Source: Candidatus Omnitrophota bacterium
Lineage (GTDB): Bacteria; Omnitrophota; Gorgyraeia; 2-01-FULL-45-10
NCBI GenBank assembly: GCA_026387175.1
Contig: JAPLME010000007.1
Location: forward strand, 64,487-128,486
Reading direction: 5' to 3'
DNA: 64,000 nucleotides
This document shows, in pieces, positions 2,086-61,713 of the stretch. How positions within the stretch are numbered: position 1 is the first letter of the stretch; the number at the start of each line of letters is the position of its first letter. The notes below the pieces were generated by a model. It made no database searches, was not told where the DNA came from, and worked only from the letters and a program-made list of their open reading frames with translations. Position numbers and translations under genes: made by a program.

Positions 2086-4554
2086 TTAGCCTCTACTTTC
2101 TTTTATGGGCAGGGTAAAGTGAAATATCGAACCTTTACCGGGTTGCGACTCCGCCCATATATTCCCGTTATGCGCCTGAATTATCTCTTTAGATATGGCC
2201 AGCCCGAGACCTGTGCCGCCCGTCTTTTTTCCAAGCCCCCCGCCCAATTGCTCGAATGTCTGAAAAAGCTTGGGCATATCTGTGGCCTGGATTCCAAGTC
2301 CGGTATCCTCCACCATCACATGCAGCACACTATCCCCACTCTTAGTAGTAATGGATATACTGCCTTTCTCTGTGAACTTTACGGCGTTACTCAATAAATT
2401 GGTGAGCACCTGAATGATCTTGTCTTTATCAAACTTTGCCCTGGGCAGGCTCTCATCTATGTTCACTATGAAGCTCATGCCCTTCTCCTCCGCCAGAAAA
2501 TTCATCCCCTTACTCGTTGCCAGTACTACCTCATTTATATTATATTCCTTGATATCGAACTCTGTCTTCCCCGCTTCCATCTTCTGAAAATCCAAAACGT
2601 TATTTATCAGGCGGCCCAATCTGTCGATATTGCTCTTTGCGGTATCTAAAATATCCTTCTGCTCAAGCGTTACGTCCCCTGCCAACCCCTCCATAACAAG
2701 ATTGATGCTTTCCTTGATAACTGTCAGCGGGCTTCTGAGTTCGTGAGATACCATAGAAGCAAACTTTGATTTTGCTTCTGCGACTTCTTTAGTGGCTTCT
2801 TCCGCTTTCTTACGCTCGGTGATGTCTTCAATAGCCAGCAGGATGATCCGCTCCTTACCCGTCCCTTGCTCAATTTGCCTGGCATTCAAAAGCATTGTGC
2901 GCATGCCGATGGTAGAAAAATCGTGTTCAACCTCGTAGTTATCAAAGGTTGTCTTTTGGGGAAGTATGGTTTCCAGCAGTTCCCGCAACCTGGGAATGTT
3001 CCACTGCTTATTGCCCAGATCATAGATAAGCTGTCCCACGGTCTCTTTGGTGCTTACCTTAAATACTTCACAGAAGGAGCGGCTGGCGGTGACTACCCTT
3101 AAATCTTGATCTAGAGCGATTAAGGGTTCACGGACGGTGTTGATGATGCTCTCGGCGTATTCGCGGGCCGCATCTTCTGATATTTTAGTTACTTCCAGTT
3201 CTTTGCGGATTTTTTCCAGCCCATTTTCTATCGCCTTACGCTCGGTGATGTCTTCAATAGCCAGCAGGATGATTCGCTCCTTACCCAGCACTCTTTGAAT
3301 CTGCCGTGCATTCAAAAGCATTGTGCGCATGCCGATGGTAGAAAAATCGTGTTCAACCTCGTAGTTATCAAGGGTTGCTTCTTGGGGAAGTATGTTTTCC
3401 AGCAGTTCCCGCAGTTTGGGAATGTTCCACTGCTTATTGCCCAGGTCATAGATAAGCTGTCCCACGGTCTCTTCGGTGTTTACCTTAAAGACTTCATAGA
3501 AGGAGCGGCTGGCGGTGACTACCCTTAAATCTTGATCTAGAACTATTAAGGGTTCACGCACGGTGTTGATGATGATCTCGGCGTATTCGCGGGCCGCATC
3601 TTCGGATATTTTAGTTACTTCCAGTTCTTTGCGGGTCTTTTCCAGGCCAGCTTCTATCTCCTTACGCTCGGTGATATCTTCAATAGCCAGCAGGATGACC
3701 CGCTCCTTACCCATCCCCCGTTCAATTTGCCTGGCATTTAAAAGCATTATACGCCTGCCGATAGCAGCAAAATTGTGTTCAACCTCGTAGTTATCAAAGG
3801 TTGTCTTTTGGGGAAGTATGGTTTCCAGCAGTTCCCGCAGCTTGGGGATATTCCACTGCTTATTGCCCAGGTCATAGATAAGCTGCCCGACGGTCTCTTC
3901 AGGTTTTACCTTAAAAAAGTCATAGAAGGAACGGCTTACCATGACCACCCTGAGATCTTTGTCCAAAGAAATTAATGGTTCACGCACAGTGTTGATAACG
4001 CTCTCAGCGAATTCACTGACTTCATCTGCGGACTTTTTAATAACCGCCAGTTCTTTTCGAGTCTTTTCCAGCCCGGCTTCTATTTCCTTGCGCTCGGTAA
4101 TATCCTCAATGGCCAGGAGGATTAGCTCTTCTTCCTCATCTTCTTCCCCTGCTTCTTCTCTTGTTTTTTCTCTTACCCCTGCCGCTATTATTGCCGCTAT
4201 TTTCTTGGGGATACGCAGCTGAGAGACATTCAGGTTAATACATCGCTGTCCAATTTGCTCGAATTCGTGTTCGATTTCATAGTTTTCTATAACTTTTTTT
4301 TCCGGAAGTATCTCCCTTAAGAGAACAAGCAGTCTTGGAATATCCCATTGCCTATTGCCTAAATCAGTAAGCGGCCGGCCTAATGTATCTTCTTTAGCGA
4401 CCTTAAAGGTATTATAGAAAGATTGGTTGGCGGAAATAACGCGCAAGTTTTTATCGAGCACCAGGAACGGTTCTCTTAGTGTAGCGATAATGCTATTGCC
4501 ATATTCTAAAGCTATCTCAATCTTTGATTTGTCCATTCCCTTTTTATCTTTCAT
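2086..4554 (-). CDS. Sensor histidine kinase with four tandem PAS domains (PAS x4, HisKA, HATPase_c; no transmembrane region or receiver)
   Basis: The C-terminus has an H-box (SHELRSPL) and an ATPase G-box (GTGLGLAISKEIIQAHNG). The N-terminal 570 aa consist of four ~142-aa PAS-like units, each beginning ...LLAIEDITERK.IE.GLEK.RKEL.... Confidence 0.8.
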   Translation of the reverse strand: MKDKKGMDKSKIEIALEYGNSIIATLREPFLVLDKNLRVISANQSFYNTFKVAKEDTLGRPLTDLGNRQWDIPRLLVLLREILPEKKVIENYEIEHEFEQIGQRCINLNVSQLRIPKKIAAIIAAGVREKTREEAGEEDEEEELILLAIEDITERKEIEAGLEKTRKELAVIKKSADEVSEFAESVINTVREPLISLDKDLRVVMVSRSFYDFFKVKPEETVGQLIYDLGNKQWNIPKLRELLETILPQKTTFDNYEVEHNFAAIGRRIMLLNARQIERGMGKERVILLAIEDITERKEIEAGLEKTRKELEVTKISEDAAREYAEIIINTVREPLIVLDQDLRVVTASRSFYEVFKVNTEETVGQLIYDLGNKQWNIPKLRELLENILPQEATLDNYEVEHDFSTIGMRTMLLNARQIQRVLGKERIILLAIEDITERKAIENGLEKIRKELEVTKISEDAAREYAESIINTVREPLIALDQDLRVVTASRSFCEVFKVSTKETVGQLIYDLGNKQWNIPRLRELLETILPQKTTFDNYEVEHDFSTIGMRTMLLNARQIEQGTGKERIILLAIEDITERKKAEEATKEVAEAKSKFASMVSHELRSPLTVIKESINLVMEGLAGDVTLEQKDILDTAKSNIDRLGRLINNVLDFQKMEAGKTEFDIKEYNINEVVLATSKGMNFLAEEKGMSFIVNIDESLPRAKFDKDKIIQVLTNLLSNAVKFTEKGSISITTKSGDSVLHVMVEDTGLGIQATDMPKLFQTFEQLGGGLGKKTGGTGLGLAISKEIIQAHNGNIWAESQPGKGSIFHFTLPIKESRG
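2809..4512 (-). repeat. Intragenic tandem DNA repeat of 4 units with an exact 426-bp period; units 1-3 are near-identical and unit 4 is diverged
   Basis: The anchor cttacgctcggtgat(g/a)tcttcaatagccagcaggatga recurs at 2809, 3235, 3661 and (diverged) 4087. Plus-strand antisense ORFs 2866-3102, 3295-3528 and 3775-3975 have near-identical translations, which reflects the same repeat. Confidence 0.85.
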
Positions 4555-36203: not shown

Positions 36204-36434
36204 TTAAATTTTCCCTGCCAGGCTAAAAGCGAAGACAAGCGCATAGATCGTTATGGCCTCAATGAACGCGCAGCCGGTAGCCATATTTATCAATATCTTC
36301 ATCGACGCTTCCGGTTGCCTGCCCGTCGCCTCCATCGCTGCCGCTACCGCCCTGCCCAGCGCTATAGCCGAGCCGAAAGCGGCTATCCCCAGACCTATGG
36401 GAAGGCCGAACGATAACATCGTCTTATAATCCAT
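36204..36434 (-). CDS. atpE: Fo ATP synthase c subunit (proteolipid)
   Basis: A 76-aa helical hairpin with the RQP loop motif and a conserved carboxylate in helix 2 (AFIEAITIY). GGAGG RBS 6-10 nt upstream. Confidence 0.9.
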   Translation of the reverse strand: MDYKTMLSFGLPIGLGIAAFGSAIALGRAVAAAMEATGRQPEASMKILINMATGCAFIEAITIYALVFAFSLAGKI

Positions 36435-36447
36435 CTCCTACCTCCTT

Positions 36448-36549
36448 GTTTATTCAGCCGTACTGTATGCCAAGTGCCGATATCCCTGATATCGGCCTAG
36501 TTTATTCAGCCTTATTGTAGGCTAAGTGCCGATATCTCTGATATCGGCC
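36448..36549. repeat. Tandem pair of a ~50-bp double-hairpin repeat unit (GATATC-palindrome element) between atpB and atpE
   Basis: Unit A spans 36448-36497 and unit B spans 36498-36549. Each unit contains a 5-bp-stem hairpin AGCCt-N6-AGGCT and a perfect palindrome GCCGATATC-N3-GATATCGGC. The same family recurs at 56023-56126. Confidence 0.85.
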
Positions 36550-37295
36550 TTTTCTTCGCGGGTTAATGCTAACGCAAAATATATTGTCGTCAAAAGACAG
36601 AATACCGAGGCCTGCACGACCGCGGCAAGGGCGGCAATGAACATATTGAATAATAAGAGCGGTACCCCTTTAAGGCCGAAGCCCGCGAGCACCGCGAGCA
36701 GCATGTCATCGCCCCATATATTGGACCGGAGCCTGAGCGATAGGCTTATGGGCCTTACAAGTTCTGAGATGATATGCAGAAATAGCATCAGTAATGGTAT
36801 GACCACCGATGCCGCCAGTATTCCCCTGGGTTTCCCCATAAGATGGTCGACGAATCCCAATAACCCGAGCTCCTTCAATGTGGTGTACTGCAGATAGACG
36901 AATACGCATAACGCGAGCGCAAGAGTTACGGACCAGTTCGATGTGGGCGCTTTCATGAAAGGCACGAGGCTTATGAGGTTCATGGATAGTATGTATATGA
37001 AGAGAGTCCCTATGAAAGGCGTAAAACGCCTTCCCTTGGGCCCGAGTATGCCGCATATGAATGAGTCAAATCCTCCTACGAACATTTCGAACGCCGACTG
37101 CAGCCTTCCGGGGATCATCCTGAGGCGCCGGGACGCGACTATAGTAATCAGCGAAATGGCGGCTATAACTATCAAAGAGAAGATGACATTCTCGTAATGG
37201 GACAGGTTTCTCAGTACCGGGATATCTTTAAAATGCTCCGAGATAATAGTTACGATATTCGGAAGCTCGTGGCTTGCTACGCTCGCTTCGGCCAT
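36522..37295 (-). CDS. atpB: Fo ATP synthase a subunit
   Basis: Multi-TM protein with the conserved Arg in LSLRLRSNIWGDD (the a-subunit R210 region). The last 8 codons and the stop (ADIRDIGT*) are encoded by repeat unit B. Confidence 0.85.
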   Translation of the reverse strand: MAEASVASHELPNIVTIISEHFKDIPVLRNLSHYENVIFSLIVIAAISLITIVASRRLRMIPGRLQSAFEMFVGGFDSFICGILGPKGRRFTPFIGTLFIYILSMNLISLVPFMKAPTSNWSVTLALALCVFVYLQYTTLKELGLLGFVDHLMGKPRGILAASVVIPLLMLFLHIISELVRPISLSLRLRSNIWGDDMLLAVLAGFGLKGVPLLLFNMFIAALAAVVQASVFCLLTTIYFALALTREEKADIRDIGT

Positions 37296-37624
37296 ATATT
37301 CATAATTCCTATAATTAATAGCGTAAGCCCTATCCCGGTTAAAAGGCTCATTACCGGAAAGAGTTTATATTTTAAGATGAAGAATCCCCCAATATACAAT
37401 ACCGGGAACTTTATTATAAGCGCCCTGGTTATTCTTTTTGGTTCTTTCTGCAGAAGCGCCATCTCAAAGAGGCTCACTGTTAGCGAGTAGTTTATAACGC
37501 ACCATAGTATGCCCGCCATTAAGCCTGCCGCCCAATCGATTTCGTTCCGGAAAAGCAGCATGGCCCCTGCGGCGGCGCCCGTCAGGTATGCGGTCTTCCT
37601 GACGCTTCTTACGATATCATTCAT
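37277..37624 (-). CDS. atpI: ATP synthase protein I (AtpI)-like small membrane protein
   Basis: Hydrophobic ~115-aa protein immediately upstream of atpB. The start is taken at the internal Met (MNDIVRSV...), because the longer ORF overlaps atpZ. Confidence 0.55.
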   Translation of the reverse strand: MNDIVRSVRKTAYLTGAAAGAMLLFRNEIDWAAGLMAGILWCVINYSLTVSLFEMALLQKEPKRITRALIIKFPVLYIGGFFILKYKLFPVMSLLTGIGLTLLIIGIMNIWPKRA

Positions 37625-37854
37625 TACCGCTCCTTGGTCCTGAGGGCGATCTTTATTATTCTGATGGTCTCCTGGACGCTTGCTATGAAACCCAGTATAA
37701 CACAAATAACTGCTGTGTAGCCAGGCAAAGTAAATTTTTTTATCAATAGATCAGCTATAAGATATCCGCCAAGCGGCCCGCCTGCCAGAATTATGGGAAT
37801 GACCGCCAAGAGCCCTGCTGTCCTCACCCATCTATACAGCTCTTCGCTCTTCAT
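37624..37854 (-). CDS. atpZ: AtpZ/ATPase_gene1-family small 2-TM protein
   Basis: A ~76-aa protein (MKSEELYRWVRTAGLLAVIPIILAGGPLGGYLIADLL...) in the atpZ position upstream of atpI. The start is taken at the internal Met of the longer ORF. Confidence 0.5.
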   Translation of the reverse strand: MKSEELYRWVRTAGLLAVIPIILAGGPLGGYLIADLLIKKFTLPGYTAVICVILGFIASVQETIRIIKIALRTKER

Positions 37855-53820: not shown

Positions 53821-56013
53821 CTACTTAATAAAAAGCATCTCTCTGTATTTCGGCAGATCCCAGTGCTCGTCCGGCACTACCCTCTCCAGATCGTCGACAT
53901 GCTTTCGTATGTGCTCCATCAAAGGCTTCAGCTCATTGAAATAAAGCTTGGCCTTTTTCTCATGGCCTATCGTGTTTGCCTTTTCGAGCAGTTTTACCAG
54001 CGCGGCGGTATTGCGCCGTACATAGTATATCTTAGCTACGACCTCCGCCAGATGCTCTTTCTGGTCTTTAAGTGCCGCTTCGTCTACCTTTAGAGCGGCA
54101 TCTTTCTTCAATCGAACTACCTTTAATAGATTGTCCGCCAGCATCTCTTCGTATTCCATACTGGCAGGAACAACGGTTGAATTCACCATCTCATTCAGGG
54201 TGTTTGCCTCGATCTCGATCATCGTATCATAGGTATGCACCCATATATGGTAGCGCGCGATTATCTCTTCGGCCGAGAAGACTTTGTATTTCTCGAATAA
54301 GGCGATATTCTTTTTATCCGCGAGCGCCTTCAGGGCTTCGCATGTCGAAGCGACATTGGGGAGGCCTCTTTTCTTGGCCTCCTTCAGCCATTCCTCGGCA
54401 TAATTGTTTCCCTCGAAACGGATATCTTTGGTCTCTTTAGCTATTTTGGCGATCACGCGCAAGGCCGCTGTATTGAAATCTTTGCCGCTCGAAGCTTTTC
54501 TTATCTCCTCAGCTACGTAATCAAGCGAATCGGCAATAATAGTATTCACCATCGTAGCCGGCGTAGATATGTTCTGGGACGACCCGACAGCCCTAAACTC
54601 GAATTTTGCCCCGGTAAACGCGAAGGGCGAAGTGCGGTTTCTGTCGGTCGTATCCTTATTGAATCTGGGCAGCCTTGCCACGCCCAGATCTATGATGTCC
54701 CTTTTTGAGACCTTATTCTTCGAGCCCTTCTCTATCATATTGAGAATGGCGTTCAGCTGGTCACCGAGATATACGCTTATGATCGCCGGGGGCGCTTCGT
54801 TCGCGCCTAACCTGTGCTCGTTACCCGCAAGGGCGACGCTTGCCCTTAAGAGATCCGCGTGTAGATATACCGCCCGCAATACCGCCACCAGCACCGCCAG
54901 AAACTGCAGATTGTCTTCCGGCGTGTCACCTGGGTTGAGAAGGTTATTACCCTTATCATCGGCAAGCGACCAATTCAAGTGTTTGCCGCTGCCATTGATC
55001 CCCGCGAACGGTTTTTCATGCAAGAGACATACCAGATTATGCCGTAATGCCACTTTCTTCATGATCTCCATCAAGAGCAGGTTGTGGTCCGTTGCTATAT
55101 TCGATTCCTCGAATACAGGCGCGAACTCATATTGATGCGGCGCTACCTCATTGTGCCTGGTCATCACAGGTATGCCGAGCTTGTAGGCCTCTTCAGCCAC
55201 TTCAAACATGTAGTTCACCACGCGTTCTTTGATAGCGCCGAAATACTGGTCTTCCAGCTGCTGCCCTTTCGGAGACGACGCTCCAACGAGCGTGCGTCCG
55301 GTCATTATAAGGTCCGGCCTCAGGTTATAGTAATTCTTATCGATCAGAAAATATTCCTGCTCCGGCCCGCAGGTAGATACCACCTTTTTCACGTCCTTGT
55401 GCCCGAAAAGCTTCAATAAATTTACGGCGGCTTTACTGAGCGCTTCATCCGAACGCAGAAGCGGCAATTTTTTGTCAAGGGCTTCGCCATTATAGGAGAT
55501 GAAGATGGTCGGTATGCAGAGAGTCTTGCCGAGAGCTGCTTCTATGATGAATGCCGGGCTCGAAGGGTCCCATGCCGTATATCCGCGGGCCTCAAATGTG
55601 GCGCGGATACCGCCTGATGGGAAGGAACTTGCGTCCGGCTCGCCCTGGATAAGTTTATTACCGGAGAACTTCTCTATCACCACCCCCGGTGAGGTTATCG
55701 ATATGAAGCTGTCGTGCTTTTCCGCCGTGAGCCCGGTCATCGGCTGGAACCAATGCGTGTAGTAGGTTGCGCCTTTAGAGATCGCCCAGTCTTTCATCTT
55801 ATCGGCGATCTCGTTCGCCTGCTCGATCGTTATCGTTACGCCTTCCGTCATCCAGCGTTTAAACGCCTTGAACGTGCTTTCGGAGATATATTTCTTCATG
55901 GACTCCACATTGAAAGTGTTCTCTCCGAAATACGAGGATACCTTCTTAGGAATCGCTACCTTTTCGAGCTCAGGACCTTTTACTCTGAATAATGCTTTCT
56001 GTCTGATTGCCAT
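53821..56013 (-). CDS. glnN: Glutamine synthetase type III
   Basis: A ~730-aa GS with the GSIII-type N-terminus (MAIRQKALFRVKGPELEKV...). The start is set at the internal ATG 56011-56013, which has GGAGG 6 nt upstream. The longer ORF-track start simply translates the upstream repeat. Confidence 0.8.
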   Translation of the reverse strand: MAIRQKALFRVKGPELEKVAIPKKVSSYFGENTFNVESMKKYISESTFKAFKRWMTEGVTITIEQANEIADKMKDWAISKGATYYTHWFQPMTGLTAEKHDSFISITSPGVVIEKFSGNKLIQGEPDASSFPSGGIRATFEARGYTAWDPSSPAFIIEAALGKTLCIPTIFISYNGEALDKKLPLLRSDEALSKAAVNLLKLFGHKDVKKVVSTCGPEQEYFLIDKNYYNLRPDLIMTGRTLVGASSPKGQQLEDQYFGAIKERVVNYMFEVAEEAYKLGIPVMTRHNEVAPHQYEFAPVFEESNIATDHNLLLMEIMKKVALRHNLVCLLHEKPFAGINGSGKHLNWSLADDKGNNLLNPGDTPEDNLQFLAVLVAVLRAVYLHADLLRASVALAGNEHRLGANEAPPAIISVYLGDQLNAILNMIEKGSKNKVSKRDIIDLGVARLPRFNKDTTDRNRTSPFAFTGAKFEFRAVGSSQNISTPATMVNTIIADSLDYVAEEIRKASSGKDFNTAALRVIAKIAKETKDIRFEGNNYAEEWLKEAKKRGLPNVASTCEALKALADKKNIALFEKYKVFSAEEIIARYHIWVHTYDTMIEIEANTLNEMVNSTVVPASMEYEEMLADNLLKVVRLKKDAALKVDEAALKDQKEHLAEVVAKIYYVRRNTAALVKLLEKANTIGHEKKAKLYFNELKPLMEHIRKHVDDLERVVPDEHWDLPKYREMLFIK

Positions 56014-56022
56014 AATTCCTCC

Positions 56023-56126
56023 AAGTTTATTCATCCATATTACAGGCTGAGTGCCGATATCCTTGATATCGGCCAAGTTTATTAAGCCGTATTGTAGACT
56101 AAGTGCCGATGTCTCTGACATCGGCC
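56023..56126. repeat. Second tandem pair of the GATATC-palindrome double-hairpin repeat, directly upstream of glnN
   Basis: Unit C spans 56023-56074 and unit D spans 56075-56126. They have the same architecture and ~80-90% identity to 36448-36549 (AGTTTATT.AGCC.TA.TGTAG.CTAAGTGCCGAT.TC...GA.ATCGGCC). Confidence 0.85.
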
Positions 56127-56299
56127 TTTAAAGTGTAAATAAAAAACGTTCGTTTCTCCCCTTTATCTCTTAAAGAAAATATCGGGTCGCCTCGAACGTC
56201 GATGTTCTTATCATTTTATTTTATCTGCTGTTATTGGCACTTCTCTGTGCCCGAAAATCGTACCACACTCTCCGTGATTGTGCAAGCACATTAATAGCG

Positions 56300-56677
56300 T
56301 TATGCTATTTTCCATTTGCCTGCATTGATGCCCAGCCTTTTTATCTTCACCCGCATCGTATTTCGGTTTATGCCCAATATTCGCGCGGCCTTCAGTTGGT
56401 TGCCGTCGGTTCTCTTCAGGGCGCGTTCGATAAGCGGTCTCTCGATCTTTTCCAGTATCGCTTTATAGATCGCGCCGCGCTTTTCTTCATACAGCAGGCC
56501 CTCCATTTCGATGATTTTTTCTTCCAGGGAATCGATTGAAACTGCGTCATCATCTTTATGAGCGTGAATTACGCCGTTACCAACGCTTCCTGATATCAGA
56601 TACCCTTTTTCTTTCAGCAATTGCGCTAAAAGTCCGCTTACTTTCTTTTCACAACTTGACGCCGTGATAGTTATCAT
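56300..56677 (-). CDS. Small Fis-family HTH DNA-binding protein (NtrC C-terminal-like) with a ~55-aa N-terminal domain
   Basis: C-terminal HTH_8 pattern GNQLKAARILGINRNTMRVKIKRLGI. Confidence 0.6.
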   Translation of the reverse strand: MITITASSCEKKVSGLLAQLLKEKGYLISGSVGNGVIHAHKDDDAVSIDSLEEKIIEMEGLLYEEKRGAIYKAILEKIERPLIERALKRTDGNQLKAARILGINRNTMRVKIKRLGINAGKWKIA

Positions 56678-60037: not shown

Positions 60038-60754
60038 TCACTTTTGCATATTATCGATGAGGATGATAGCTTCCGCTATCTCCCGCATAGATTTTCTAAT
60101 GTCCATGCTCTGCCGCTGTATTTTACGGAATGCTTCCTCCTCGGATAATCCCTGCTGCCGCATCAAGATGCCCTTTGCCCTCTCTATAGCTTTGCGTGAT
60201 TCAAGTTCTTCCTGTATGACCCTCGTCTTTACCATGAGCTCCGAGTTCTCTATTACGATCGATGCCTGGCTCGCGACGGTGGTCAGTATGTTGATTTCAT
60301 CTTTTGTGAATTTATGCGGGTAGGATGTGTAACTGTTAAGCACGCCTATAACTTTGCCTTTTACGGCAAGCGGCACAGAGAGAAGCGATTTCAGGCTCTC
60401 TTTTTCAGCTATAGCCTTCGATCTGTACTCCGGCTCCCTTGACAGATCGTAGACCGATATTGGCTTATTCTCGAGAGCGACTTTGCCTGCGATACCCTCG
60501 CCTATTTTAAGATGCGGTTTTTTATTGTAGATTTCGCTCATTGACTGGGTGGCCTTCAGTACCAGGTTGCCGGTCTTTTCGTCTATTAACATAAGTGAAC
60601 ATATCTTTGAGTCCATTATCTCCGCCGTCACCGTGACTATCAGTTTCAATATATCTTCTAGGTACAGGTTGGAGGTTATGGTCTTACTGACCTTAGAGAT
60701 TGCCTCTAATTGTTTCGCGTGAGATATAGTCCTTTTATTGGATTTTTTTATCAT
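60038..60754 (-). CDS. GAF + ANTAR domain regulator (RNA-binding antiterminator-type)
   Basis: A GAF-like central region and a C-terminal ANTAR (EELESRKAIERAKGILMRQQGLSEEEAFRKIQRQSMD). The start is set at the internal Met, which gives an ATGA overlap with the upstream radical SAM gene. Confidence 0.7.
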   Translation of the reverse strand: MIKKSNKRTISHAKQLEAISKVSKTITSNLYLEDILKLIVTVTAEIMDSKICSLMLIDEKTGNLVLKATQSMSEIYNKKPHLKIGEGIAGKVALENKPISVYDLSREPEYRSKAIAEKESLKSLLSVPLAVKGKVIGVLNSYTSYPHKFTKDEINILTTVASQASIVIENSELMVKTRVIQEELESRKAIERAKGILMRQQGLSEEEAFRKIQRQSMDIRKSMREIAEAIILIDNMQK

Positions 60755-61713
60755 GCTATTCCGTTTTTTCTTTCTTGTTTGATGTTTGTTCCCATGAACC
60801 TGGGATCGGCATTTGCAGGGGCCTCCTGCAGCCATCCATTATTTAACTCTAAAAGATGTGCCTCGTCAACTACATTCTTATACTCCTCAGGTGTTATTCC
60901 TCGCGATATATCGCTAAAGCCGCAGGCTTTGAAGGTCGGATAGTATTGGCTCATTATGCTCAAGTAAACGTTACGGCCCAGCTCTTTCTTTGCGAATCTC
61001 AATGTATCTTCAATCCCGGATACATCATTTGGCAGCGCCAGGAGGCGTATGATGAGCCCTCTTCTTGCTATGCCGTTTTTATCAATCTCAAGATCTCCAA
61101 CCTGACGGCGCATCTCTTTCACGGCCGTTCTGTTAAACTCTACATACCTATCGGCATCCGAATATTTCTTTGCCATTTCGTTGTCGGAATATCTCATATC
61201 CGGCAGATATATGTCGATTATTCCATCCAGAAGCTTTATAGTTTCCGCGAGTTCGTAACCGCTTGTATTATAGACGATCGGTATCTCCAAGCCTCTTTCC
61301 AGCGCTATCTCCAGAGACATGAGTATCTGCGGGATGTAATGAGTCGGTGTCACCAAATTAATATTATGGCAACCCTTGGCTTGTAGAGCCAGCATTATAT
61401 CGGCCAGCTTTTCCATAGTGACCTCCTCCCCTTTATCCAGCTGGCTGAAGTAATAATTCTGGCAATAGACGCACTTCATATTACAGTGGGAAAAGAATAT
61501 GGTGCCGGACCCTTTGGTCCCTGAGATCGGCGGCTCTTCGCCGTGGTGGGATAAATGGCTATATACGATCGGGTTATACAGCGCCCTGCAGTATCCCGAT
61601 TTACCGGCGGTCCTGTCGACTCCGCACTTGCGCGGGCAGACAGCGCAGTTTTTAAGAGAATCTTTTAATGCTATATTGGCTTTTTTTACTAAGGTTATTT
61701 TTTGCGGGCTCAT
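60751..61713 (-). CDS. Radical SAM enzyme, PflA-like, resembling the AmmeMemoRadiSam-system radical SAM subfamily
   Basis: An N-terminal Cys-rich segment (CAVCPRKCGVDRTAGKSGYC), then GTIFFSHCNMKCVYCQN (CxxxCxxC). Confidence 0.55.
   Translation of the reverse strand: MSPQKITLVKKANIALKDSLKNCAVCPRKCGVDRTAGKSGYCRALYNPIVYSHLSHHGEEPPISGTKGSGTIFFSHCNMKCVYCQNYYFSQLDKGEEVTMEKLADIMLALQAKGCHNINLVTPTHYIPQILMSLEIALERGLEIPIVYNTSGYELAETIKLLDGIIDIYLPDMRYSDNEMAKKYSDADRYVEFNRTAVKEMRRQVGDLEIDKNGIARRGLIIRLLALPNDVSGIEDTLRFAKKELGRNVYLSIMSQYYPTFKACGFSDISRGITPEEYKNVVDEAHLLELNNGWLQEAPANADPRFMGTNIKQERKNGIA

What the first reader, a model, noticed from the sequence alone, without database searches (positions are those of the whole stretch)
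56023..56126. Same repeat cassette placed directly upstream of glnN, generating a spurious N-terminal extension
A second tandem pair of the element (units at 56023-56074 and 56075-56126) sits upstream of glnN (type III glutamine synthetase). The proximal unit ends ...GGATGAATAAAC, followed by TTGGAGG, 6 nt, then ATG (56013). This is the same geometry as at atpE.

Because the element lacks stops in one frame, the longest-ORF call (start 56121) adds 36 residues that are just the translated repeat. Two highly expressed genes, an ATP synthase c-ring and glutamine synthetase, share an identical upstream cassette including the SD spacing. That argues for a functional expression or regulatory module rather than random junk.
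Basis: seen in the sequence. Interest (0 to 1): 0.65.

Follow-up and report, generated by a model that had tools for sequence, protein, structure and literature searches.

The report
Mobile repeat inserted at ribosome-binding sites
The 104-base cassette in front of the glutamine synthetase gene is two copies of a 52-base hairpin-forming repeat, scattered through some Omnitrophota genomes, that sits exactly at the edge of ribosome-binding sites; here it is a recent insertion, not a conserved expression signal, and the 36 extra codons it seems to add to the gene are not real.

Summary
Two 52-nt units lie at 56075-56126 and 56023-56074 (minus strand) and abut the glnN Shine-Dalgarno GGAGG. A second pair lies between atpB and atpE.

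Public-data scans found 56 units at 39 sites, mostly in Candidatus Omnitrophota contigs. Each unit has a 9-bp covarying hairpin, invariant GCACU, a 5-bp hairpin and the tail GAAUAAACUU. Arrays hold 1-3 co-oriented units. About 85% are followed immediately by GGAG and a start codon 6-17 nt later.

The element is a lineage-specific insertion, not a conserved glnN or atpE signal:
- A relative with 95% identical GlnN has the same leader but no element (AAAA^GGAGGAATCATG).
- Eight further glnN loci (167 kb) have none.
- Only the four closest AtpB homologues carry the hairpin-encoded tail ADIRDIGT*.
- An 80% relative shows the empty site GAAAA^GGAGG.
- atpI gives a third filled/empty pair.

Downstream genes are functionally diverse. 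Predicted ribosome-site accessibility is unchanged by the element.

The 36-codon GlnN extension is spurious. glnN's probable control region is an upstream ANTAR-type leader.

Closest analogue: mycobacterial MIRUs. No Rfam family matched and no description turned up in the literature library searched.

The parts
56075..56126 (-). Distal 52-nt unit (u3) of the glnN pair. Hairpin P1 is GCCGAUGUC-AGA-GACAUCGGC; hairpin P2 is AGUC..GGCU; the tail is UAAUAAACUU. It contains the spurious ATG at 56121-56119.
   Evidence: covariance model R1 scores 74.1 bits.
56023..56074 (-). Proximal 52-nt unit (u4) of the glnN pair. P1 is GCCGAUAUC-AAG-GAUAUCGGC. The usual TAG is mutated to CAG.
   Evidence: R1 scores 61.1 bits.
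56018..56022 (-). Native Shine-Dalgarno GGAGG of glnN, immediately 3' of the array. It is the right-hand side of the insertion site (AAA^GGAGG).
   Evidence: The empty allele in L048 reads ...GTTAAAA^GGAGGAATCATG.
53821..56013 (-). glnN, type III glutamine synthetase, 730 aa. The true start is ATG 56013.
   Evidence: Pfam GSIII_N, Gln-synt_C and Gln-synt_C-ter; PDB 3O6X alignment; homologue lengths.
56014..56121 (-). Spurious 36-codon extension (MSETSALSLQYGLINLADIKDIGTQPVIWMNKLGGI), which is the translated repeat.
56139..56285 (-). Context: the glnN promoter and leader, which the repeat does not touch. It has TTGCAC-17-TACGAT (56285-56257), hairpin GCAC-AGAGAA-GUGC (56250-56237), hairpin GAAC-AUCGAC-GUUC (56207-56194) and an overlapping terminator with a U-run (56200-56139). 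This is an ANTAR-type antiterminator layout.
   Evidence: Conserved in orthologous loci L040-L048; fold z = -4.2; GAF-ANTAR gene at 60038-60835.
36498..36549 (-). Distal unit of the atpB/atpE pair. Its P1 and TAG supply the last 8 codons and the stop of atpB (ADIRDIGT*).
   Evidence: C-termini of AtpB homologues.
36446..36497 (-). Proximal unit of the atpB/atpE pair. It is followed by GGAGG (36445-36441), 6 nt, then the atpE ATG at 36434.
36204..36434 (-). atpE (ATP synthase c subunit, 76 aa), downstream of the second array.
   Evidence: The orthologous gene is annotated ATP-synt_C in L049-L051.
36522..37295 (-). atpB (ATP synthase a subunit). Its native C-terminus (...THEE(A) in relatives) is replaced by an element-encoded tail.
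   Evidence: The empty site in L051, where atpB overlaps the atpE start, is shown.
37622..37640 (-). Unoccupied target site in this genome: ACCAA^GGAGCGGTAATG, 5' of the atpI-like gene (junction at 37634/37633). The relative L050 carries one unit exactly here.

Best explanation
The cassette is two copies of a small, non-autonomous, mobile or expanding interspersed repeat found in some Candidatus Omnitrophota lineages.

Shown. The 52-nt unit occurs in arrays of 1-3 direct copies. It lies on the same strand as the downstream gene. Its 3' end (AAUAAACUU) touches the GGAG of that gene's Shine-Dalgarno sequence. Three filled/empty allele pairs place the insertion point at N(A-rich)^GGAG. In two of them this point lies inside the last codons of an upstream gene that overlapped the SD and start of the next gene.

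Shown. The unit carries stop codons in all three sense frames and re-creates an A/U-rich context in front of the SD. The upstream ORF is therefore closed after a short neo-tail (AtpB ...ADIRDIGT*), and the downstream RBS is left intact and equally accessible.

Inferred. These properties make insertion nearly harmless, so copies persist and vary in number (2 against 3 units at atpB/atpE).

Inferred. The precise junction reflects target choice by an unidentified machinery, or microhomology-driven copying between A-rich/GGAGG sites. The uniform orientation may instead be selected, because the reverse orientation reads as an intrinsic terminator.

Inferred. The element is co-transcribed and folds into two local hairpins. 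Any effect on glnN expression is secondary. glnN is controlled by the upstream ANTAR-type leader. The 36-codon extension is an annotation artefact.
For: Family. There are 56 units at 39 sites, with nothing expected by chance in the window.

Structure. 89% of cells are paired, against 28-40% in slid controls. Seven of the 9 P1 pairs covary.

Position. Of 37 scorable sites, 33 have a start codon 6-17 nt after the last unit, in most of them preceded directly by GGAG or a close variant (GGGGG, GGAAG). All 39 are co-oriented with the downstream ORF. The search patterns did not include the SD, so this is not an ascertainment effect.

Empty and filled sites:
- glnN is filled in the window and empty in L048, whose GlnN is 95% identical and whose leader is about 90% identical up to the junction.
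- There are zero copies in 167 kb around eight other glnN orthologues.
- atpB/atpE: L051 is empty (GAAAA^GGAGGAACTGCATG), L049 has 2 units and L050 has 3 units.
- The ADIRDIGT tail is present only in the 4 closest of the 120 best AtpB homologues listed.
- atpI is filled in L050 and empty in the window.

Other points. Stops are present in three frames in 38 of 53 units. The upstream ORF ends inside the element at 13 or more sites. RBS accessibility is 0.495 with the element, 0.466 shuffled and 0.485 deleted. Downstream genes are functionally diverse. The glnN units are closer to units at other loci (0.92, 0.87) than to each other. P1 plus its A-rich 5' flank scores as a terminator on the antisense strand only.
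Against: No transposase, autonomous partner, terminal inverted repeats or clear target duplication was found. At most there is a 'GG' duplication, and L049 keeps a GGAG 5' of the array.

The conservation is stronger than expected for junk. There are 12 invariant positions, including GCACU. P1 covaries. G-U outnumbers A-C by 16 to 5 in P2. The distal atp unit is 52/52 identical between genomes whose AtpB is 88% identical. The atp array is retained in all four members of its clade.

These points fit an RNA-level function or concerted evolution equally well. Position and orientation bias could result from selection rather than targeting.

The sample is about 40 sites from fragments. No complete genome was surveyed.
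Confidence: 0.62

Rival explanations
1. Functional expression module. The cassette is a selected 5'-UTR or intercistronic device. Its hairpins would protect the mRNA and its A/U-rich tail would act as a translation enhancer or standby site directly 5' of the SD, and it would have been recruited to genes that need high or uncoupled expression.
For: The SD-abutting geometry is strict. The fold is conserved, with covariation and sense-strand G-U pairs. The tail is single-stranded AAUAAACUU. The array is retained in front of atpE in the whole 84-100% AtpB clade. Several copies sit 10-20 nt downstream of promoter-like -10 boxes, that is, near the mRNA 5' end (L028, L029, L035).
Against: The element is absent from glnN in a 95%-identical relative and in eight other orthologous loci. 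It is absent from atpE in all but 4 of the 120 best AtpB homologues listed. The target genes are functionally unrelated and include low-abundance functions such as a GNAT, ParB and MoxR. There is no gain in predicted RBS accessibility. Insertions truncate or re-tail upstream proteins, which looks like tolerated damage rather than design.
Confidence: 0.2
2. Protein-recognised RNA 'punctuation' element. The invariant GCACU at the foot of P1, together with P2, would be the binding or cleavage site of a lineage-specific RNA-binding protein or endoribonuclease. That protein would cut polycistronic transcripts at cistron boundaries or regulate many genes at once.
For: Invariant single-stranded GCACU lies between two hairpins whose stems are free to vary. 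The location is at cistron boundaries, in the sense orientation only. A related two-hairpin repeat sharing P1+GGCACUU exists in other phyla.
Against: There is no candidate protein and no transcript data. Copies also occur in monocistronic leaders and in front of promoters (L013, L002). The rapid gain/loss pattern is unlike a regulon. No Rfam family matches.
Confidence: 0.1
3. The long ORF is real, and GlnN in this organism carries a 36-residue N-terminal extension starting at ATG 56121.
For: The frame is open across both units. This required the loss of two otherwise conserved stops (G43T, T26C) and is seen at only 3 of 33 sites.
Against: The ATG lies inside the 5' arm of the P1 hairpin, with only AAGG 3 nt upstream. 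The peptide is the translated repeat. The 95% relative and 116 of the 120 best homologues listed start at MA(I/V)RQ. The solved GSIII structure begins at the same position. A canonical GGAGG-4 nt-ATG precedes Met 56013.
Confidence: 0.03
4. Local minisatellite. The two pairs arose by in-situ duplication of pre-existing leader sequence and share their sequence by descent or chance, without any dispersal.
For: The arrangement is tandem and copy number varies (2 against 3 units).
Against: Near-identical units occur at about 39 unrelated loci in several MAGs and metagenomes. The glnN units are closer to units elsewhere than to each other. Empty alleles lack the whole unit.
Confidence: 0.02

Closest known systems
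MIRUs (mycobacterial interspersed repetitive units)
   Same: Both are short units (roughly 40-100 bp by my own recollection; 52 nt here) in direct tandem arrays that vary in copy number between strains. Both lie between co-transcribed genes and in the same orientation as them. MIRUs are regarded as mobile and as inserting at gene starts in a way that minimises the impact on the downstream gene (PMC12548453). The size, tandem and copy-number properties of MIRUs rest on my own knowledge.
   Different: MIRUs are reported to carry an internal ORF that becomes translationally coupled to the downstream start with -4 nt spacing. This element instead carries stops in all three frames and leaves the native SD in place, with a 6-17 nt gap to the start. 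It has two conserved hairpins, it belongs to another phylum, and it also occupies monocistronic leaders. Sequence similarity to MIRUs was not tested.
REP / BIME / REPIN palindromic repeats (GTAG- and CGTC-tagged)
   Same: P1 is a G+C-rich palindrome of about 21 nt that is repeated many times, transcribed and able to form RNA hairpins. REPs are described as 20-40 bp palindromes thought to act in mRNA stabilisation or termination (PMC3733652).
   Different: There is no GTAG or CGTC tag: the flanks are A-rich or ACTT on the 5' side and ACTTAG on the 3' side. Units form direct tandems, not inverted dimers. They lie upstream of genes, not predominantly downstream or between convergent genes. A conserved 30-nt non-palindromic tail is part of the unit. 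RAYT association could not be tested.
Transcribed MITE-like repeats (Correia elements, ERIC, BOX, RUP)
   Same: They are small, structured, dispersed repeats co-transcribed with neighbouring genes. They show presence/absence polymorphism and are known to alter expression through RNase sites, attenuation or new promoters (background section of PMC3049150).
   Different: There are no terminal inverted repeats. The position and orientation rule relative to the SD is strict, whereas the pneumococcal repeats are over-represented between convergent genes. The unit is much shorter.
Rickettsia palindromic elements (RPE)
   Same: An insertion changes the protein sequence of a host gene without destroying it. 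Here AtpB and other upstream proteins acquire an element-encoded C-terminal tail. The description of RPE rests on my own knowledge.
   Different: RPEs insert in frame inside ORFs and are read through. This element terminates the ORF and sits at gene boundaries.

Membership tests
MIRU-like intercistronic tandem repeats | Short unit in direct tandem arrays, with copy number varying between related genomes | tested here: met
   There are 1-3 units per site. The atpB/atpE array has 2 units in the window and L049 and 3 in L050.
MIRU-like intercistronic tandem repeats | Located between co-oriented genes, in the same orientation as them | tested here: met
   All 39 sites are co-oriented with the downstream ORF. 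At most sites a same-strand upstream ORF ends within about 60 nt or inside the unit.
MIRU-like intercistronic tandem repeats | An internal ORF overlapping or coupled to the downstream start codon (-4 spacing; PMC12548453) | tested here: not met
   The consensus unit has TAG, TGA and TAA in three frames. 30 of 33 sites have an in-frame stop in or after the last unit. The native SD is retained 4-12 nt before the start.
MIRU-like intercistronic tandem repeats | Sequence homology to mycobacterial MIRU units | not tested
The host phylum differs.
Tagged REP / REPIN | Imperfect palindrome of 20-40 nt | tested here: met
   P1 has a 9-bp stem and a 3-4 nt loop, with 89% of cells paired.
Tagged REP / REPIN | GTAG or CGTC tetranucleotide at one end of the palindrome (PMC3733652) | tested here: not met
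   The flanks in alignment A1 are A-rich or ACTT (5') and ACTTAG (3'). Neither tag is present on either strand.
Tagged REP / REPIN | Mostly inverted dimers, downstream of genes or between convergent genes | tested here: not met
   Only direct tandems were seen. 33 of 37 scorable sites lie directly 5' of a start codon.
Tagged REP / REPIN | Association with a RAYT (Y1) transposase gene | not testable with these tools
   Whole genomes of the carriers could not be scanned. No stand-alone P1 copy was found in about 500 kb of loci.
MITE | Terminal inverted repeats | tested here: not met
   The unit ends GGCCGA... and ...ATAAACTT are not complementary.
MITE | Target-site duplication | tested here: inconclusive
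   Every unit starts with GG (or G) and every array is followed by G(G). This is compatible with a 1-2 bp duplication or with arbitrary unit phasing. L049 keeps GGAG on both sides.
MITE | Presence/absence polymorphism with precise junctions | tested here: met
   There are three filled/empty pairs: glnN, atpB/atpE and atpI.
Known Rfam cis-regulatory RNA (including glutamine riboswitch / glnA RNA) | Match to a curated covariance model at its gathering score | tested here: not met
   There were no hits at gathering threshold in the whole window. The E<=10 scan of 55950-56320 gave only chance-level hits, and none on the units.
CRISPR array | Identical repeats separated by unique, non-palindromic spacers, forming long arrays | tested here: not met
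   Arrays hold only 1-3 units. The variable part (P1) is a palindrome that recurs at many loci. Arrays always abut a gene start.

The most novel reading that the evidence does not exclude
The repeat may home to ribosome-binding sites through a dedicated mechanism: a transposition or recombination system, or an RNA/ssDNA-guided step, that recognises the A-rich/GGAGG junction. Alternatively it may have been domesticated as a genome-wide 'cistron boundary' RNA signal, read through its invariant GCACU by a lineage-specific protein. Either reading would define a new class of RBS-directed genetic element able to split overlapping, translationally coupled genes.
Probability: 0.2. Interest if true: 0.8.

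Novelty: new variant of a known kind. Interest (0 to 1): 0.55.

Why it matters
First, it corrects annotation. Longest-ORF calls across these repeats create false N-terminal extensions, and real but element-encoded C-terminal tails such as AtpB ...ADIRDIGT appear in upstream proteins.

Second, it describes a repeat family of an uncultivated phylum whose insertion point is the 5' edge of the Shine-Dalgarno sequence. The element is built with three-frame stops, self-contained hairpins and a regenerated A/U-rich SD context, so it can land even inside overlapping gene pairs without killing either gene. This gives a natural system for studying two questions: how mobile DNA can target or survive at translation-initiation sites, and how splitting coupled genes such as atpB/atpE affects their stoichiometry.

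Third, the filled and empty alleles provide ready-made controls for experiments.

Tried and rejected
- Rfam: no match, either at gathering threshold on the whole window or in a permissive scan of the locus.
- Glutamine riboswitch or nitrogen leader: rejected. The conserved glnN leader lies upstream and is of ANTAR type.
- Promoter inside the unit: the sigma-70 consensus scan finds none in the units. By eye the GGCAC-N5 spacing does not fit the sigma-54 GG-N10-GC rule, and the TACAAT-like box is not conserved across units.
- CsrA-type site: GGA in the P1 loop is present in only about half of the units (AGA 20, GGA 19).
- RBS-insulator or enhancer through structure: there is no meaningful change in predicted accessibility (0.495 against 0.466 and 0.485).
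- CRISPR-like reading (constant tail as repeat, P1 as spacer): rejected because P1 is palindromic and recurrent.
- Strand test by G-U against A-C counts: weak overall (17 against 11) and suggestive only in P2 (16 against 5).
- Phage origin: no match in IMG/VR for either pattern.
- Literature: full-text searches for a description in Omnitrophota found none. A broader search on Shine-Dalgarno and interspersed repeats returned only background on other repeat families.
- Lindowbacteria and groundwater-MAG hits: these share only P1+GGCACTT. They belong to a different GC-rich repeat that lies in different frames of long ORFs, and were not pursued.

Full report
OBSERVATION

On the minus strand the sequence reads ...TTTACACTTTAAA, then two 52-nt units (56126-56075 and 56074-56023), then GGAGG (56022-56018), AATT and ATG (56013). 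Tandem Repeats Finder reports period 52 at 56021-56126 and again at 36444-36550. A hairpin pattern and an independent tail pattern each find exactly these four units in the 64-kb window, with none expected in shuffles. The ORF list shows the 766-aa call from 56121 against 730 aa from 56013.

The description is therefore correct, with three small errors.
- The SD-to-ATG spacer is 4 nt at glnN and 6 nt at atpE.
- The cassettes are similar but not identical.
- The open frame is a peculiarity of these two copies, not of the element.

WHAT THE UNIT IS

Scanning one genome per species with the hairpin pattern, and JGI metagenomes with the tail pattern, returned 39 loci. 35 of them carry the same element; the named ones are Candidatus Omnitrophota MAGs. 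The other four, from Lindowbacteria and a groundwater MAG, share only the hairpin. The window itself is from a Candidatus Omnitrophica MAG contig of 247,818 bp.

Fifty distinct units align without effort. The layout is:
- hairpin P1, with 9 bp and a 3-4 nt purine-rich loop;
- invariant GCACU;
- hairpin P2 (AGCCN / N'GGCU, loop of about 6 nt);
- the tail GAAUAAACUU.

On this structure 89% of cells are standard pairs, against 28-40% when partners are slid. Seven of the nine P1 pairs show changes on both sides. P2 varies mainly by C-to-U changes that keep G-U pairs. A covariance model (R1) finds 56 units at 39 sites and nothing else in about 300 kb. No Rfam family matches.

WHERE IT SITS

All 39 arrays (1-3 units) lie on the strand of the downstream ORF. 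Of 37 scorable sites, 33 have a start codon 6-17 nt after the last unit, and in most the intervening sequence begins with GGAG or a close variant. The search patterns did not contain the SD, so this is not an ascertainment effect.

The same-strand upstream ORF typically stops a few nucleotides before the array or inside it, at the unit's own TAG (positions 26-28), TGA (42-44) or TAA (46-48). These three stops lie in three different frames and are all kept in 38 of 53 units.

In the window, atpB ends ...TREEK-ADIRDIGT*. The last eight residues and the stop are P1 plus TAG. Solved a-subunits end 3-5 residues after the point where homology stops, at residue 244.

The downstream genes are ordinary and diverse. 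They include NusB, RpoZ, IlvC, FtsH, PyrB, OsmC, Hcp, L31, FolD, AcpP, a GNAT, ParB, arginine decarboxylase, MlaD, MoxR and signal peptidase.

There are a few exceptions. In L013(-) and L002 the 3' CTTG is fused to a near-consensus -35/-10 pair. In L026 the array is followed by a large hairpin.

IS IT A CONSERVED PART OF glnN OR atpE? NO.

glnN:
- GlnN homologues were retrieved and their contigs fetched.
- Eight orthologous loci (GlnN 82-89% identical, 167 kb in all) contain no copy anywhere.
- The closest relative, L048 (95% identical GlnN), has the same promoter and leader at about 90% nucleotide identity up to ...TTTACACCTTAAAAGTTAAAA. It then continues directly with GGAGGAATCATG.
- The 104-nt pair is therefore an insertion exactly at AAA^GGAGG, younger than that split.

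atpB/atpE:
- Only the four closest of the 120 best AtpB homologues listed (84-100% identity) end in ADIRDIGT. The rest end natively, in ...THEE(A) or in an unrelated short extension.
- L051 (80%) shows the empty site ...CATGAAAA^GGAGGAACTGCATG. There atpB runs through the SD and overlaps the atpE start.
- L049 has two units and L050 has three.

atpI: L050 also has a unit 10 nt upstream of atpI, at ACCAG[unit]GGAGCGGCAATG. The window has the empty site ACCAA^GGAGCGGTAATG at 37634/37633.

In total there are three independent filled/empty pairs, all at the 5' edge of GGAG, and two of them lie inside the tail of an overlapping upstream gene. The two glnN units are each closer to units at other loci (0.92 and 0.87 identity) than to each other (about 0.79). 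The pair is therefore not a fresh local duplication.

THE N-TERMINAL EXTENSION

The frame from ATG 56121 is open only because u3 lost TGA (G43T) and u4 lost TAG (T26C). 30 of 33 sites have an in-frame stop in or after the last unit. The ATG lies in the 5' arm of P1.

NCBI annotates 730 aa, and 116 of the 120 best homologues listed are 728-732 aa and begin MA(I/V)RQ. None has a repeat-derived extension. Residue 52 of the long ORF aligns with residue 18 of the solved GSIII 3O6X. The extension is spurious.

WHAT ACTUALLY CONTROLS glnN

Comparison of the orthologous leaders shows four conserved features:
- a TTGCAC-17-TACGAT promoter;
- a hairpin GCAC-AGAGAA-GUGC;
- a hairpin GAAC-AUCGAC-GUUC, whose hexaloop keeps A1 and G4 in all orthologues examined;
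- a terminator that reuses ACGUUCG as its 5' arm and ends in a U-run (fold z = -4.2).

This is the layout of ANTAR-controlled antitermination, a statement that rests on my own knowledge of ANTAR systems. A GAF-ANTAR gene lies at 60038-60835, and also near glnN in L040, L042 and L045. The repeat pair lies between this terminator and the SD and leaves the leader intact.

DOES THE REPEAT DO ANYTHING TO EXPRESSION?

ViennaRNA partition-function estimates for 33 sites give a mean unpaired probability of the SD-start region of 0.495 with the element, 0.466 with the element shuffled and 0.485 with it deleted. The element neither occludes nor opens the RBS.

No promoter-like site lies within the units in the sense orientation. 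On the antisense strand, however, P1 followed by the complement of the A-rich flank scores as an intrinsic terminator. An inverted insertion inside an operon would therefore probably terminate transcription. This alone could explain the uniform orientation.

MECHANISM (BEST ESTIMATE)

The element is a small non-autonomous repeat that spreads within certain Omnitrophota lineages and becomes fixed at N^GGAG in the sense orientation. Its three-frame stops close any upstream ORF. Its hairpins fold locally. Its A/U-rich 3' end restores the usual context of the SD. Both neighbours therefore survive, at the price of a short neo-tail on the upstream protein and loss of start/stop overlap.

What is shown:
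- the structure;
- the positional rule;
- the insertion polymorphisms;
- the neutrality of predicted RBS accessibility.

What is inferred:
- mobility as a process, since no enzyme, terminal inverted repeats or clear target duplication were found;
- targeting as opposed to selection;
- the absence of a strong expression effect.

Conservation leaves room for an RNA-level role. The relevant observations are the invariant GCACU, the covariation, the distal atp unit being identical in two genomes with 88% AtpB identity, and retention in the atp clade.

COMPARISON WITH KNOWN ELEMENTS

The nearest analogue is the mycobacterial MIRU. A recent review describes MIRUs as apparently mobile and as inserting at start codons so that an internal ORF is coupled to the gene with -4 spacing, which minimises the impact (PMC12548453). 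The strategy here is the same in spirit and different in implementation: stops plus a retained SD, instead of a coupling ORF.

REPs share the palindrome, but they carry GTAG or CGTC tags, form inverted dimers and lie mainly downstream of genes (PMC3733652). None of these features holds here. Correia, ERIC, BOX and RUP elements are also transcribed structured repeats that can alter expression (PMC3049150), but they have no SD-edge rule.

I found no description of this family in the searchable literature, in Rfam, or in IMG/VR.

OPEN POINTS

- In five tandem pairs the 30-nt tails are identical while the P1 hairpins are only 55-70% identical.
- Two common P1 types carry a conserved UC/UC internal loop.
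- The same 26-nt P1+GGCACTT occurs in a different GC-rich repeat in Lindowbacteria and in a groundwater MAG.
- No complete genome could be surveyed, so copy number per genome and any partner gene remain unknown.

Noticed in passing
window 56139-56285 (minus strand) and 60038-60835 (minus strand): The glnN leader has a conserved promoter and two hairpins, the second of which (GAAC-AUCGAC-GUUC) keeps A1 and G4 of its hexaloop in all orthologues examined. A terminator shares its 5' arm with the second hairpin. This is an ANTAR-type antiterminator layout. A GAF-ANTAR regulator gene lies 4 kb upstream, and similar genes lie near glnN in L040, L042 and L045. The 29-nt linker between the hairpins seems longer than I recall for characterised ANTAR targets.
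   Followed up: partly
L051 10740-10770; window 37622-37640: In genomes or sites without the repeat, neighbouring genes overlap. The atpB stop lies 8 nt inside atpE, with the atpE SD inside atpB. The ORF upstream of atpI ends in TAATG. Insertion of the repeat abolishes these overlaps and so probably abolishes translational coupling.
   Followed up: partly
L004 629-685, L006 7350-7395, L009 3240-3283, L010 6936-6979: A different GC-rich two-hairpin repeat (GATCC-GGCCGATGTCGGAGACATCGGCACTTGGGGCGTCGGAGACGCTGATCCGGC) occurs in a Lindowbacteria MAG and a groundwater MAG. It shares 26 nt (P1+GGCACTT) with the Omnitrophota element. It overlaps long same-strand ORFs in different frames.
   Followed up: partly
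L013 249-300 (minus strand) and L002 82-133: At two sites the element's 3' CTTG forms the start of a near-consensus promoter (TTGACA-17-TATACT; TTGCAA-17-TATAAT) instead of abutting an SD. The flank here is G-initial but is not GGAG.
   Followed up: no
window 36476-36496, 36528-36548 and 56053-56073 (plus strand): Read on the antisense strand, P1 plus the complement of the A-rich flank or of the preceding tail scores as an intrinsic terminator. The element may block antisense transcription, and would be polar if inserted in the opposite orientation.
   Followed up: partly
window 2809-4122: There is a 426-nt tandem repeat with 3.1 copies and 87% matches (TRF score 1952). It is unrelated to the 52-nt element and is probably a repeated coding domain.
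   Followed up: no
L038 2431-4400 (ORF downstream of the element): The UDP-glucose dehydrogenase-like gene downstream of the element is 656 aa. It has an insertion of about 220 aa after GGHC that ends in ...THNC, which looks like an intein.
   Followed up: no
L040 10001-10072: The glnN orthologue is called as 753 aa there because an in-frame ATG with its own AAGGAGG lies 23 codons upstream of the conserved MPVRQ start. This may be a uORF or an alternative start, and it is unrelated to the repeat.
   Followed up: no
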